Origin: an uncultured Ectothiorhodospiraceae bacterium
GTDB lineage: Bacteria; Pseudomonadota; Gammaproteobacteria; GCA-002705445; GCA-002716945
Length of the DNA stretch: 64,000 bases
NCBI GenBank assembly: GCA_964342155.1
Contig: CAYFEQ010000003.1
Coordinates: 27,734 to 91,733 of the forward strand
Direction of reading: 5' to 3'
The notes beneath the pieces were generated by a model. The model was given only the letters and a program-made list of their open reading frames with translations. It did not search any database and had not been told where the DNA came from. Positions 43,436 through 46,264 of this stretch are shown here, piece by piece. Within the stretch, counting starts at the first letter, position 1; every line of letters begins with the position of its first letter. The translations under genes were made by a program, and so were the position numbers.

Positions 43436-46264
43436 TTAATTGCTTGAGGTTTGAGCAACATTTTGGTTTGCATTTAGTTCCATTGCTTCTCTTATATTGA
43501 CTGAAACAAGTTTTGAAACACCAGCTTCACGCATTGTTACTCCAGAAAGGATATCAGCAATTTCCATTGTGGGTTTATTATGAGTTATAAAAATAATTTG
43601 AACTTCCTCAGACATTTCTTTAACAATAGAACAGAACCTAAGATTATTCCCTTCATCTAAAGGTGCATCAACTTCATCTAAAAAACAAAATGGGGCTGGA
43701 TTAAGTTTAAACATCGAGAATACAAAAGAAACTCCTGTTCCAGCCTTTTCGCCGCCTGAAAGCAAACTTATATTCCTAACTAATTTACCAGGGGGTTTTG
43801 CCATGATTGTTATTCCAGTATTCAGCAAATCATTATCTGTCATTTCTAAATAAGCTTTACCTCCACCAAAAATTTTTGGAAAAAAGTATTCTAAATTTTT
43901 ATTAATTTGATCAAATACATCTTTAAATTTAGATTTAGTATCTAAATCTATCTTCTTGATTGCAGATTCTAAAGTACTTATTGATTTAGATAAATCATCA
44001 TACTGATTATCTAAATATTTTTTTCTTTCTTCTTGTTCTTTTAATTCATCAATTGCAGCTAAATTAATTGGGCCTAGATTTTCAATTTTGTTTTTAGTTT
44101 TTTCAAGATTAATCTCTAAATTACTTACCTCTAAAGTCTTGTCCACATCTATTATCGCTTGATCTATTTCATCTTTGTTAACCTCAATATTATCTTTTAA
44201 AGATTTTTTTTGTGCACTCTTCTCGCCAAGATTAATTTTTTTTGTTTCTAGAGTCTCTCTTATTTTATTTATAGATACATCAATTTTTTGTTTATCAAGC
44301 TCAAAGTTCTGTATATTTTGATCGCATTTTGCTACTTTATCTCTAGCATCTGAAAGTTGGTTTTCCTTATCCTGTTTTTTGCTAATCAATTCAGTCAGTT
44401 TTGACTGCATATCAGTAGACATTGATTTTGGTATATTGACGTCTGTTATAATTTTTTGTTTTCTAGATTCTGTCGCCTTGCGTTCTTCAATATAACGATG
44501 AAGATTATTTTTTAGTGAAGACTGTTCAGCATTAAGACTTGAAATTTTGATATTTAATTCATTTTGTAACTCTAGTGTTTCATCGAATTCCCAAACAATT
44601 TTATCAGTCATCTGTTTAAGTTCTATTTTTTCTTTTTCTAATTTGATTTTATGCTTCTCATCATCTTTAATTAGTTTTTGAAGTTCTTCGAGTCTTTGAT
44701 TAGATTTTTTCAAAAGTTGTTTATAATCATCAATTTTATTTTTAATATCATTAATTTCATCTTGTTGGGATCTCACCAAGAGTTTGATTTGATTAAATAA
44801 GCTCTTAAATCTTTCAACTATAGCGGTAATTGTTTTTGGTATTTGAGATAAGGTCTTATTCTTTTCATCTTTTGGTATTTTAATTCTTTCAAAATCAATC
44901 AGTACCGCAGAAAGTTTCTCTTTTATGCTTGTAGCATCATTCAAAATTGTGCTTTTACTTAGTAATTCTTTATTTTTATCTGCCTGAGCATCAGATTCTA
45001 ATATTTTGAGCCTTTTACTTAAAGCATCTTCAGATTTTTGATAGGATGCAATTTTAGTTTTCTCAATATCATGTTCTTTTATAGTTTCAGCCTGTTTTGA
45101 TAAAAAATCATTGTAAATTGTTTGCCAATTCTGTAATGCAAAAGCAGATTCAGATTTCTTGGTTGATAATTCTTTGACTTTATTCTTGGCTTGCGTAAGT
45201 TTTTCATCATTCTCATTAATGCTGTTAGTTAATTTATTATCTTTCTCTTTATCTTTTGTCTCTAGCTTTTCAATCTCTATAAAGGATGCTTCTATTTCAT
45301 CTAGAGATAGCTTTCTTGATGTTTCAGTTTCTTGACTATGCTCTATATCGCTTTCACATTTAGCAATTTCACTTCCTATTTGATAGAAATCAGATTGAAG
45401 TCTATTTGCGCTTTCTTCTTCGCTTGTTCTTTTCTCTCTTTCCTTTTCTATTAATTTATCCCTATTGCTTAAATCTGCCTTAAACCTTTCTTGGTTAGTA
45501 GTTTCCTTACTTATTTCTTTCTCTATTTCGTTTATTTCTAAATCATAACCTAACCATTTTAAGGCTATTATATCTAATTTGAGTTGCCTCTCTTTTAATT
45601 TATATTCTTTATATCCTTCTGCAGCAGTCGCTTGTCTTTCAAGTTTGCCTAATTGTGAATTAATTTCCTTCATCACATCTTTAAGTCTACTTAGATTTTC
45701 TTTTGTATGCTTTAACCTGAGCTCTGTCTCTCTTCTTTTTTCCTTATATTTGCTAATCCCAGCAGCCTCCTCAAGATAAGTTCTTAATTCTTCAGGTTTT
45801 GATTCAACTAATCTAGAAATCATACCTTGTTCAATAATTGCATAACTCCTTGGCCCTAAACCGGTTCCTAAAAAAACCTCTCTAATATCTTTTCTTCTGC
45901 AGCGAGTGTTATTAAGATAGTAGTTTGAGACGCCATCTCTGGTTAATTCCCTTCTAATTACTATTTCATTATATTTAGCAAACTTTAAATCAAGTGTATT
46001 GTTAGAATTATCAAAAAATAGCTCTACGTTAGCTTTTCCTACAGGTTCTCTAGATGACGATCCTGAGAAAATTACAGCTTCCATTGAGTCCCCTCTCAGA
46101 CTCCGTGCTGATGACTCACCCATTACCCATTTTACGGCATCAATGATATTTGATTTTCCACAGCCATTTGGCCCTATCACACCTGTTAAGTTGCTAGGGA
46201 ATGTCAGTGTTGTGGGGTCTACGAAAGTCTTGAAGCCGGCTAATTTTATTTTTGTAAGACGCAT
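43436..46264 (-). CDS. smc: Chromosome segregation protein SMC (942 aa, hinge not recognisable)
   Basis: [14 protein letters not shown] Walker A, EQG Q-loop, [17 protein letters not shown] signature, LDEVDAPLD Walker B/D-loop, ITH. Confidence 0.93.

What the first reader, a model, noticed from the sequence alone, without database searches (positions are those of the whole stretch)
43436..46264. SMC protein with intact ATPase heads but apparently no hinge domain
Seen: 942 aa with all head motifs present. By my count there is no glycine between residues 297 and 680. At the midpoint of the arms (about residues 460-480, nt about 44825-44887) there is only a short two-proline turn ([19 protein letters not shown]) between helical heptad segments, and no CxxC hook. 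Known: canonical Smc (about 1150-1200 aa) dimerises through a globular Gly-rich hinge (G-x6-G-x3-GG) needed for ring closure and DNA loading. Inference: a hinge-less SMC that dimerises by coiled-coil apex contacts or works by a different architecture, a natural test of loop-extrusion models.
Basis: partly seen in the sequence, partly recalled or inferred. Interest (0 to 1): 0.85.

Follow-up and report, generated by a model that had tools for sequence, protein, structure and literature searches.

The report
Natural SMC protein lacking its hinge
An abundant uncultured marine gammaproteobacterium carries, at the normal smc position, a conserved chromosome-organising SMC ATPase whose globular hinge is replaced by a small all-helical cap, so it tests what the hinge is really needed for.

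Summary
ORF 43436-46264 (-) encodes a 942-aa Smc with every ATPase head motif, no CxxC, and no hinge. Pfam finds no hinge at E<=10. A hinge profile built from its 143 nearest canonical relatives scores them 60-217 bits and this protein not at all. AlphaFold2 predicts residues 170-799 as all helix.

It is not an artefact. More than 120 protein clusters of 940-944 aa (58-100% identical), from independent assemblies, share the architecture. dN/dS is 0.06. The gene sits in the orthologous queF|smc|ligA slot.

The apex is more than a two-proline turn. It is a roughly 70-residue two-helix cap (429-499), set off by breaks in both arm helices and more hydrophobic than the arms. The arms are about 260 aa, matching the short length class that works in B. 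subtilis mini-Smc.

How it dimerises, and whether ScpAB is present, could not be tested. Hinge-less marine SMCs were reported in 2025 but assigned to Actinobacteria. This gammaproteobacterial family is a further case. I also found two more hinge-less groups, and the head tree never joins the three. Interest is moderate to high, and the case is experimentally tractable.

The parts
43436..46264 (-). smc gene: 942-aa hinge-less Smc. The stop codon is 43436-43438.
   Evidence: ORF list and translation. TIGR02168 SMC_prok_B scores 827 bits against a cutoff of 567. Pfam SMC_N spans residues 3-917.
45758..46264 (-). N-terminal half of the ATPase head (residues 1-169). It carries Walker A GPNGCGKS (46151-46174), the arginine finger SLRG (46091-46102) and the Q-loop IIEQG (45824-45838).
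   Evidence: Motif positions. Aligned to the B. subtilis Smc head 5xg3, domain i-E-value 2.8e-54. Per-15-residue family identity is 84-99% over residues 1-165.
44981..45757 (-). N-terminal arm helix (residues 170-428). It has one break at 309-314, next to the conserved motif [13 protein letters not shown] (residues 297-309, nt 45338-45376).
   Evidence: AlphaFold2 DSSP gives H170-308 and H315-428, with pLDDT about 80-92 outside the break. The sub-model gives H351-428 with pLDDT above 90.
44768..44980 (-). Apex cap that replaces the hinge (residues 429-499). It consists of break 429-432, helix 433-460, loop 461-466, helix 467-496 and break 497-499.
   Evidence: AlphaFold2 sub-model with no strands; pLDDT 58-84 in the cap. 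No hit to the hinge HMM. Hydrophobic content is 0.34 and 0.42 against 0.25-0.30 in the arms, and helix 2 has net charge +4.7. dN/dS is 0.07.
43985..44767 (-). C-terminal arm helix (residues 500-760). It starts with the conserved hinge-exit remnant [10 protein letters not shown] (residues 495-504, nt 44753-44782). It has a break at 607-617 (nt 44414-44446) and further breaks at 692-696, 707-712 and 731-735.
   Evidence: AlphaFold2 DSSP. In the alignment with canonical Smc, LLVRSQ.DE lines up with GVLAR.RE.
43439..43984 (-). C-terminal half of the ATPase head (residues 761-942). It carries the signature LSGGEK (43745-43762), Walker B FCFLDEVD (43667-43690), the D-loop APLD (43655-43666) and the H-loop ITHNK (43574-43588).
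   Evidence: Motif positions. Aligned to the B. subtilis Smc head, domain i-E-value 2.5e-57.
41406..43424 (-). ligA (NAD-dependent DNA ligase). It starts 11 nt after the smc stop codon and is probably co-transcribed. No zipA lies between the two genes.
   Evidence: ORF. The Pfam ligase domains appear in the syntenic locus L026. tblastn synteny across loci.
46328..46717 (+). queF, divergent from smc. It marks the orthologous locus queF|smc|(zipA)|ligA.
   Evidence: ORF. PF14489 in L026. queF sits immediately upstream of canonical smc in L005-L007, L011, L012, L016, L017 and L019-L023.

Best explanation
This is the orthologous, functional Smc of an uncultured, AT-rich (about 30% GC) marine gammaproteobacterium.

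Shown:
- About 225 residues present in its roughly 1165-aa relatives are missing. They are the globular hinge core and the hinge-proximal parts of both arms.
- What remains is an intact ABC-type head, two arm helices of about 260 residues, and a cap of about 70 residues that is predicted to be all helix.

Inferred:
- The protein still works as a two-armed, ATP-driven chromosome-organising Smc, probably with a kleisin (ScpA) bound to its very conserved neck and cap surfaces.
- The hydrophobic, partly basic helical cap takes over the one indispensable hinge job, holding the two arm tips together. It would do this by helix-helix packing, for instance as a small four-helix bundle.
- The elaborate Gly-rich hinge and its DNA-binding surface have been dispensed with during genome streamlining.

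My confidence that it is a real hinge-less orthologous Smc under selection is about 0.9. My confidence that the cap is the dimerisation element is about 0.45.
For: Hinge absence:
- No PF06470 at E<=10.
- No hinge structures among 55 PDB sequence hits.
- No hit to a hinge HMM built from the 143 nearest canonical relatives, run with --max at E<=10. Canonical proteins score 60-217 bits and Firmicute and Bacteroidete Smc score 30 bits.
- AlphaFold2 gives helices only from 170 to 799. In the 350-580 sub-model mean pLDDT is 85.7 and there are no strands.
- Foldseek finds only helical hairpins.

Real and selected:
- All 120 listed homologue clusters are 940-944 aa and lack the hinge. They come from many independent assemblies and contigs up to 870 kb.
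- dN/dS against the 85%-identical L001 is 0.062 overall and 0.073 in the apex.
- Per-15-residue head identity in the family is mostly 84-99%, and the neck (166-210) is 92-100%.

Orthology:
- The TIGR02168 equivalog scores 827 bits against a cutoff of 567.
- The gene sits in the same queF|smc|(zipA)|ligA slot as canonical gammaproteobacterial smc.

Arms still tuned:
- The N arm is 170-428 (259 aa) and the C arm is 500-760 (261 aa), with breaks at 309-314 on the N helix and 607-617 on the C helix.
- This falls inside the 253-267-aa window in which shortened B. subtilis Smc regained function (PMC5344682).

Cap as a contact module:
- Its large-hydrophobic content is 0.34 and 0.42 against 0.25-0.30 in the arms, and helix 2 has net charge +4.7.
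- Cap helix 1 has three hydrophobic heptad positions. The eleven arm windows tested have 0-3, mostly 1-2.

Precedent: a B. subtilis Smc whose hinge was replaced by the Rad50 zinc hook is described as a functional chimera (PMC5344682 figure 5 legend).
Against: - No dimer model or biochemical data exist.
- The apex loop is among the least conserved parts of the protein, with identity 0.53 at residues 466-480. The cap as a whole is no more conserved than the arms, which is not what one expects of a tight obligate interface.
- Cap pLDDT is only 58-84.
- The segment LSAVLID aligns with the first hinge beta-strand of canonical Smc, so the helical prediction there may be wrong.
- ScpA and ScpB were not found in the window, in its 10-kb extension at the start, in the short contigs recovered for its other end, or in related loci. 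Their presence in the genome is therefore unknown.
- A second canonical SMC, or MukBEF or MksBEF, elsewhere in the genome cannot be excluded.
Confidence: 0.6

Rival explanations
1. The arm tips do not dimerise at all. Two protomers are joined only through ATP-engaged heads and a bridging kleisin, possibly with the arms zipped side by side. The complex would be an open-ended rod or fork rather than a closed ring, and it would organise DNA without topological closure at the apex.
For: The apex loop and cap are no better conserved than the arms. Cap model confidence is moderate. No Cys, His or Gly-rich dimerisation motif is present. The heads and neck are extremely conserved, so the head-side interfaces are clearly under the strongest constraint.
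Against: The arms obey the length class that in B. subtilis is needed for two arms to work together. The cap is more hydrophobic than the arms. dN/dS in the apex is 0.07. All functional SMC, Rad50, MukB and RecN proteins known to me have some apex dimer contact; this last point is from established knowledge, not tested here.
Confidence: 0.25
2. It is a repurposed SMC paralogue, for example a RecN-, Rad50- or SbcC-like repair or defence ATPase. The real condensin (canonical Smc, MukBEF or MksBEF) would be encoded elsewhere in the genome.
For: The whole genome was not available. Hairpin ATPases without a hinge are typical of Rad50, SbcC and RecN. The gene is adjacent to a DNA ligase gene.
Against: The gene sits in exactly the queF|smc|(zipA)|ligA slot of canonical gammaproteobacterial smc. 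The TIGR02168 equivalog score is above cutoff, while the RecN and Rad50 models score 13-35 bits against cutoffs of 408-1087. There is no CxxC. There is no nuclease gene next to it. The 2025 study found no co-occurring regular SMC for its own hinge-less cluster in single-cell genomes.
Confidence: 0.08
3. A strongly diverged but still globular hinge-like fold is hidden in the middle region, and profiles and AlphaFold2 both miss it.
For: Pfam's hinge model is weak on Gammaproteobacteria: the canonical-length P0138 gets no Pfam hit. The remnants RLKILES, LSAVLID and [10 protein letters not shown] align to the hinge entry, the first hinge strand and the hinge exit. Cap pLDDT is moderate.
Against: Only about 70 residues lie between the arm breaks, against about 170-190 for a hinge. 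The clade-specific HMM detects P0138 at 144 bits but finds nothing here. This sequence has no glycine in the region. Both AlphaFold2 runs give only helix.
Confidence: 0.04
4. It is an assembly collapse, a chimera, or a decaying pseudogene.
For: The window is probably a metagenome-derived sequence.
Against: Proteins of identical length and architecture occur on many independently assembled contigs from five sources. The frame is intact. dN/dS is 0.06 and dS is about 1.3.
Confidence: 0.01

Closest known systems
Canonical bacterial Smc (Smc-ScpAB condensin; TIGR02168, B. subtilis Smc)
   Same: The head is about 45-50% identical to the B. subtilis head, with all ATPase motifs. The neck and cap surfaces are conserved. 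It has long antiparallel coiled-coil arms with mid-arm breaks. It occupies the same chromosomal slot as gammaproteobacterial smc.
   Different: It has no globular Gly-rich hinge (PF06470). About 225 residues are missing. The arms are about 260 aa rather than about 340 aa. The apex is a helical cap of about 70 residues.
'Hinge-less' SMC clade from Tara Oceans OM-RGC (Environ Microbiome 2025, PMC12153180)
   Same: Marine and abundant. SMC heads with an antiparallel coiled coil, no hinge and no CxxC. SMC-like rather than Rad50-like. No regular SMC was found co-occurring in single-cell genomes.
   Different: That cluster was annotated as Actinomycetes and branched near actinobacterial Smc. The family here is gammaproteobacterial by nearest relatives, synteny and MAG labels.
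Engineered B. subtilis Mini-Smc and Smc(Zh), the hinge-to-Rad50-zinc-hook chimera (Burmann et al. 2017, PMC5344682)
   Same: Shortened arms work in a 253-267-aa window, and the arms here are about 260 aa. A chimera with a foreign dimerisation module in place of the hinge is described as functional.
   Different: The engineered chimera still has a strong, defined dimeriser, the zinc hook. The natural protein has neither hook nor hinge.
Rad50 / SbcC
   Same: An ABC head with a long antiparallel coiled-coil hairpin and no globular hinge.
   Different: There is no CxxC zinc hook. There is no adjacent Mre11 or SbcD gene. The Rad50 models score 13-30 bits against cutoffs of 454-1087.
RecN
   Same: An SMC-like head with a coiled coil that dimerises tip to tip without a hinge domain (from established knowledge).
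   Different: RecN is about 550 aa with short arms. TIGR00634 scores 35 bits against a cutoff of 408.
Chemoreceptor cytoplasmic hairpins (for example T. maritima 2ch7 and 3g67)
   Same: They are among the nearest structural matches to the apex model, TM 0.30-0.52 at E about 3e-3 to 1e-2. They are long helical hairpins, and from established knowledge they homodimerise into four-helix bundles, which is a plausible analogue for cap-cap packing.
   Different: There is no sequence relationship. The match is generic for helical hairpins and is not significant.

Membership tests
Bacterial Smc (TIGR02168 / Smc-ScpAB condensin) | A bipartite ABC ATPase head with Walker A, Q-loop, signature motif, Walker B, D-loop and H-loop | tested here: met
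   All motifs were located. The B. subtilis head aligns in two stretches, with domain i-E-values of 2.8e-54 and 2.5e-57.
Bacterial Smc (TIGR02168 / Smc-ScpAB condensin) | Whole-protein score above the curated equivalog cutoff | tested here: met
   TIGR02168 scores 827 bits against a cutoff of 567, in two stretches. The archaeal-type TIGR02169 scores 403 bits against a cutoff of 729.
Bacterial Smc (TIGR02168 / Smc-ScpAB condensin) | Long intramolecular antiparallel coiled-coil arm | tested here: met
   AlphaFold2 gives helices 170-428 and 500-760 with pLDDT mostly 80-92 outside the breaks. This is a prediction only.
Bacterial Smc (TIGR02168 / Smc-ScpAB condensin) | Central globular, Gly-rich hinge dimerisation domain (PF06470) | tested here: not met
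   No Pfam hit at E<=10. No hit to the clade-specific hinge HMM. No strands in the AlphaFold2 models. No PDB hinge hits.
Bacterial Smc (TIGR02168 / Smc-ScpAB condensin) | Orthologous genomic position in Gammaproteobacteria: queF | smc | zipA | ligA | tested here: met
   queF and ligA flank the gene here and in the canonical loci L002-L023. Only zipA is missing here.
Bacterial Smc (TIGR02168 / Smc-ScpAB condensin) | Kleisin and KITE partners ScpA and ScpB encoded in the genome | not testable with these tools
   Neither is in the 64-kb window, in its 10-kb extension at the start, in the short contigs recovered for its other end, or in related loci. Whole genomes of the lineage could not be scanned. 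ScpA and ScpB were confirmed only in the canonical Woeseiaceae locus L008.
Rad50 / SbcC | CxxC zinc hook at the coiled-coil apex | tested here: not met
   The cysteines are at 35, 122, 303, 647, 860 and 878. There is no CxxC and no Cys in residues 304-646.
Rad50 / SbcC | Adjacent Mre11/SbcD nuclease gene and a family-model score above cutoff | tested here: not met
   The neighbours are ligA and queF. The Rad50 models score 13-30 bits against cutoffs of 454-1087.
RecN | A protein of about 550 aa matching TIGR00634 | tested here: not met
   35 bits against a cutoff of 408, and the protein is 942 aa.
Hinge-less marine SMC variants (PMC12153180) | SMC-type head plus coiled-coil hairpin, with no hinge and no CxxC | tested here: met
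   compared with the description read.
Hinge-less marine SMC variants (PMC12153180) | Belongs to the published monophyletic, Actinomycetes-annotated cluster | tested here: inconclusive
   The nearest canonical relatives, the synteny and the MAG labels are gammaproteobacterial, which argues for a different clade.

The most novel reading that the evidence does not exclude
The sole condensin of abundant free-living bacteria works with no stable contact at the arm tips. Its dimers would be joined only at the heads and kleisin. A closed SMC ring, and the hinge as DNA gate or anchor, would then be dispensable for chromosome organisation. The recurrence of this solution in three gammaproteobacterial groups that the head tree never joins, and reportedly in marine Actinobacteria, would mark it as a viable minimal design favoured by genome streamlining.
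Probability: 0.15. Interest if true: 0.9.

Novelty: new member of a known kind. Interest (0 to 1): 0.62.

Why it matters
The hinge is treated as a defining, essential part of SMC proteins. It is the constitutive dimer interface, a DNA-binding site, and a proposed DNA entry gate or anchor in loop-extrusion models.

Here evolution has removed it from the orthologous Smc of widespread marine bacteria. The ATPase head, the neck and a tuned arm length stay under strong purifying selection.

This gives SMC biochemists a small natural construct for two questions: what minimal apex is sufficient for function, and is ring closure at the tip needed at all? The hinge-less state also turns up in several groups that do not cluster together. 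That suggests the hinge is one of the more expendable SMC parts when genomes are streamlined.

This was not evident from the single 2025 report, which assigned the phenomenon to one actinobacterial clade.

Tried and rejected
- Tandem-linked apex dimer for AlphaFold2 (alignment A2).
- Foldseek of the full model. It returned only generic SMC, Rad50 and MukB matches at low TM.
- Foldseek of the apex model. There was nothing at E<=1e-3, only generic helical hairpins.
- hmmalign to a canonical full-length profile to fix the deletion boundaries. The deletions were scattered over reference positions 430-765, because coiled coils align loosely. Only the total (about 225 residues) and the region are reliable.
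- The search for ScpA and ScpB:
  - Pfam scans of 20 window ORFs.
  - A six-frame motif scan of all loci then held.
  - Window-end look-ups.
  - None was found except in the canonical locus L008.
- Taxonomy. Rfam found only two tRNAs and no rRNA. Source names say only Gammaproteobacteria or Pseudomonadota bacterium, plus one Pelagibacterales label that is probably a mis-binned MAG. A SAR86-like identity is my guess and was not tested.
- The supplements of the 2025 paper hold identifiers only, not sequences.
- The Gly-free run as a criterion. I rejected it as non-diagnostic.
- A first tree script timed out. It was redone with a faster distance routine. These are NJ trees on about 420 head columns, so 'independent loss' is provisional.
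Full report
**1. The observation**

The window carries an ORF at 43436..46264 on the minus strand that encodes 942 aa.

- All head motifs are present: Walker A GPNGCGKS (31-38), arginine finger SLRG (55-58), Q-loop IIEQG (143-147), signature LSGGEK (835-840), Walker B FCFLDEVD (859-866), D-loop APLD (867-870) and H-loop ITHNK (893-897).
- Glycines occur at 297 and 680 with none between.
- The six cysteines form no CxxC.
- [19 protein letters not shown] is residues 460-478, nt 44887..44831.

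Two details need correcting. First, the 382-residue Gly-free run is particular to this sequence. Among its relatives the longest run has median 283 and minimum 108. Canonical Smc arms are also Gly-poor, with median 130 and maximum 322, so the run is not diagnostic on its own. Second, only P476 is invariant in the family, not P464.

**2. Is the hinge really absent?**

Pfam finds SMC_N spanning residues 3-917 and no SMC_hinge even at E<=10. NCBIfam's equivalog model for bacterial Smc, TIGR02168, scores 827 bits against a cutoff of 567. It does so in two stretches, the first covering residues 2-501. A sequence search of the PDB returns 55 hits, matched through the head and, for full-length eukaryotic chains, the adjoining arms. 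No hinge structure is among them.

Pfam's hinge model is weak on Gammaproteobacteria: the canonical-length relative P0138 gets no Pfam hit. I therefore built a 202-column hinge HMM from the 143 nearest canonical relatives.

| Target | Score with the hinge HMM |
|---|---|
| Canonical relatives, including P0138 at 144 bits | 60-217 bits |
| Firmicute and Bacteroidete Smc | about 30 bits |
| Query and all 940-944-aa relatives | no hit, with filters off at E<=10 |

A MAFFT alignment against canonical proteins of 1165-1180 aa shows about 225 residues missing. All of them lie in the hinge and the hinge-proximal arms.

AlphaFold2 on a 32-sequence family alignment predicts residues 170-799 as helix only. 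Arm pLDDT is about 80-92 outside the breaks. The heads are poorly modelled because the alignment is shallow.

A second model of residues 350-580 has mean pLDDT 85.7. It gives the following elements and no strands:
- helix 351-428
- break 429-432
- helix 433-460
- loop 461-466
- helix 467-496
- break 497-499
- helix 500-579

Foldseek against the PDB matches only generic helical hairpins, namely SMC arm fragments, chemoreceptor hairpins and SH3BP5. Nothing reaches E<=1e-3, and there is no hinge, zinc hook or MukB hinge among the matches.

**3. Not an artefact and not decaying**

The 120 best homologue clusters are all 940-944 aa and 58-100% identical. None carries PF06470. They come from ENA, JGI, Tara, NCBI and Logan assemblies on contigs up to 870 kb.

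In a library clustered at 50% identity, the family collapses to one full-length representative (P0121, 941 aa) plus a fragment. Everything else in the top 150 is canonical length or a hinge-bearing short-arm form.

Against the 85%-identical gene in L001:

| Segment | dN/dS |
|---|---|
| Overall | 0.062 |
| N-terminal head half | 0.006 |
| C-terminal head half | 0.027 |
| Arms | 0.068-0.080 |
| Apex | 0.073 |

dS is about 1.3. An assembly collapse at about 44850 is excluded by this recurrence.

**4. Orthology and context**

In canonical gammaproteobacterial loci (L002-L023), queF lies divergently upstream of smc. ligA follows 0.7-1.5 kb downstream, and that gap holds zipA in L022. In the window, and in its 60%- and 85%-identical relatives, the order is queF | smc | ligA, with ligA starting 11 nt after the smc stop.

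The hinge-less gene therefore occupies the orthologous slot and is not an obvious paralogue. The source labels are 'Gammaproteobacteria bacterium' or 'Pseudomonadota bacterium' MAGs. Window GC is about 30%. A SAR86-like identity is my guess only.

**5. Anatomy of what replaced the hinge**

The apex is not just a two-proline turn. Both arm helices break at matching points, 429-432 and 497-499. Between the breaks lies a two-helix cap.

Sequence remnants of the canonical hinge survive at its edges:
- RLKILES aligns with the conserved LASLETL hinge entry.
- LSAVLID aligns with the first hinge strand (L.AVCVD).
- [10 protein letters not shown] aligns with the GVLAR.RE hinge exit.

Family-averaged composition shows the cap helices richer in large hydrophobics than the arms, 0.34 and 0.42 against 0.25-0.30. 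Cap helix 2 is net basic at +4.7. Cap helix 1 has three hydrophobic heptad positions, where the eleven arm windows tested have 0-3 and mostly 1-2.

Against a tight interface, the loop (466-480) is among the least conserved stretches at 0.53 identity. The cap overall is no better conserved than the arms.

The arms measure 259 aa (170-428) and 261 aa (500-760), each with a break: at 309-314 on the N helix and at 607-617 on the C helix. With head boundaries set as in Burmann et al. the mean is about 264 aa. That lies inside the 253-267-aa window in which shortened B. subtilis Smc regained function, close to a natural mode of SMC arm length (PMC5344682).

**6. How it most likely works**

Shown: a complete ATPase head, a very conserved neck and C-terminal head surface, arms of a permitted length, no hinge, and strong purifying selection.

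Inferred: it remains the lineage's chromosome-organising Smc. It is probably still a two-armed dimer, because arm-length tuning matters only when two arms must align. It probably still binds a kleisin at the conserved neck and cap surfaces.

The least certain step is tip closure. I favour helix-helix packing of the two hydrophobic caps, at about 0.45. The main rival is no tip contact at all, at about 0.25.

There is precedent that the hinge is replaceable. A B. subtilis Smc with a Rad50 zinc hook in its place is described as a functional chimera (PMC5344682 figure 5 legend). I could not establish whether ScpAB exists in this lineage.

**7. Comparison with what is known**

A 2025 paper (Environ Microbiome 20:65, PMC12153180) already described an abundant 'hinge-less' SMC cluster in the Tara OM-RGC catalogue. 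It used AlphaFold, found no CxxC, and found no co-occurring regular SMC in GORG-Tropics single-cell genomes. It assigned the cluster to Actinomycetes. The kind is therefore published.

The family here is gammaproteobacterial by relatives, synteny and labels. It is therefore most likely a separate case, but I could not compare sequences directly.

While following relatives I found two further hinge-less groups:
- **Group B.** It is large, 918-937 aa and 46-99% identical to the 930-aa gene in MAG NAT271. That gene lies at L022 8477-11269, in a 28% GC contig, in a queF|smc|zipA|ligA locus. None of its members hits the hinge HMM.
- **Group C.** It is small and consists of P0269 (1016 aa), P0315 (1018 aa) and the fragment P0316 (896 aa). 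Its nearest canonical relatives are Sedimenticola- and Thiodiazotropha-type Smc.

In neighbour-joining trees of the head domains each group is monophyletic in 100 of 100 bootstraps. The groups never join each other, 0 of 100. This suggests repeated loss. The trees are simple, so the inference is provisional.

Short-arm Smc proteins that keep the hinge also exist: P0145 at 990 aa and P0250 at 1003 aa.

**8. Verdict**

The finding is real and robust. It is an uncharacterised natural SMC architecture with an open mechanism, already flagged once in the literature for another phylum.

I rate it a new member of a known but barely studied kind, with interest about 0.6. The most novel reading not excluded is a condensin that works without any tip closure, at a probability of about 0.15.

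Noticed in passing
L022 8477-11269 (MAG NAT271, contig NZYO01000022.1): A second, much larger group of hinge-less short Smc proteins. They are 918-937 aa and 46-99% identical to this 930-aa gene. They come from marine metagenomes and 'Gammaproteobacteria bacterium' MAGs, and the gene sits in the same queF|smc|zipA|ligA slot. None of the 120 listed members hits the hinge HMM. In head-domain NJ trees the group is monophyletic (100/100) and never groups with the window's family (0/100).
   Followed up: partly
P0269 (1016 aa), P0315 (1018 aa), P0316 (896-aa fragment): A third, small hinge-less Smc group with Q-rich arms. It has no Pfam hinge and no hinge HMM hit. Its closest relatives are canonical Smc of about 1168 aa from Sedimenticola-, Thiodiazotropha- and Chromatiales-type bacteria (51-54% identity over the heads). 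Its sister in the NJ tree is the canonical P0317.
   Followed up: partly
window 43425-43435 (the smc-ligA intergenic region); compare L022 11269-11958: zipA, which lies between smc and ligA in L022 (PF04354 hit), is absent here. Canonical gammaproteobacterial loci have a gap of 0.7-1.5 kb at this position, whereas here ligA starts 11 nt after the smc stop. The same holds in the 60%- and 85%-identical relatives. I did not check whether zipA has moved or been lost.
   Followed up: partly
P0145 (990 aa), P0250 (1003 aa), P0224 (1071 aa): These are natural short-arm Smc proteins that keep a hinge. The hinge HMM scores them 161-213 bits at about residues 402-614. They have clean deletions of about 80-90 residues in each arm (P0145, P0250). 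They illustrate arm shortening without hinge loss.
   Followed up: partly
window 45338-45376 (residues 297-309) and 44414-44446 (residues 607-617): There are two breaks in the arms: 309-314 on the N-terminal helix and 607-617 on the C-terminal helix. The first lies next to a strongly conserved motif, [13 protein letters not shown], in which G297, C303 and H309 are invariant. The pair may be an elbow or joint.
   Followed up: no
L008 18946-21361 (Woeseiaceae MAG with canonical smc at 10001-13510): A scpA-scpB-rluB cluster lies about 5.4 kb downstream of smc and ligA, with ScpA (PF02616) and ScpB (PF04079) confirmed. These could serve as seeds to search the hinge-less lineages for kleisin genes.
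   Followed up: partly
P0301 (cluster of P0018, 62% identical to the query): One member of the hinge-less family is labelled 'Pelagibacterales bacterium' (MBC8304359.1). All other named members are labelled Gammaproteobacteria or Pseudomonadota, so this is probably a mis-binned or mislabelled MAG.
   Followed up: no
window 4689-5746 (-): Two ORFs of 147 and 203 aa lie directly downstream of a MotA/ExbB-family gene (5727-6470). Neither has a Pfam hit. They are possibly divergent ExbD- or TonB-like partners.
   Followed up: no
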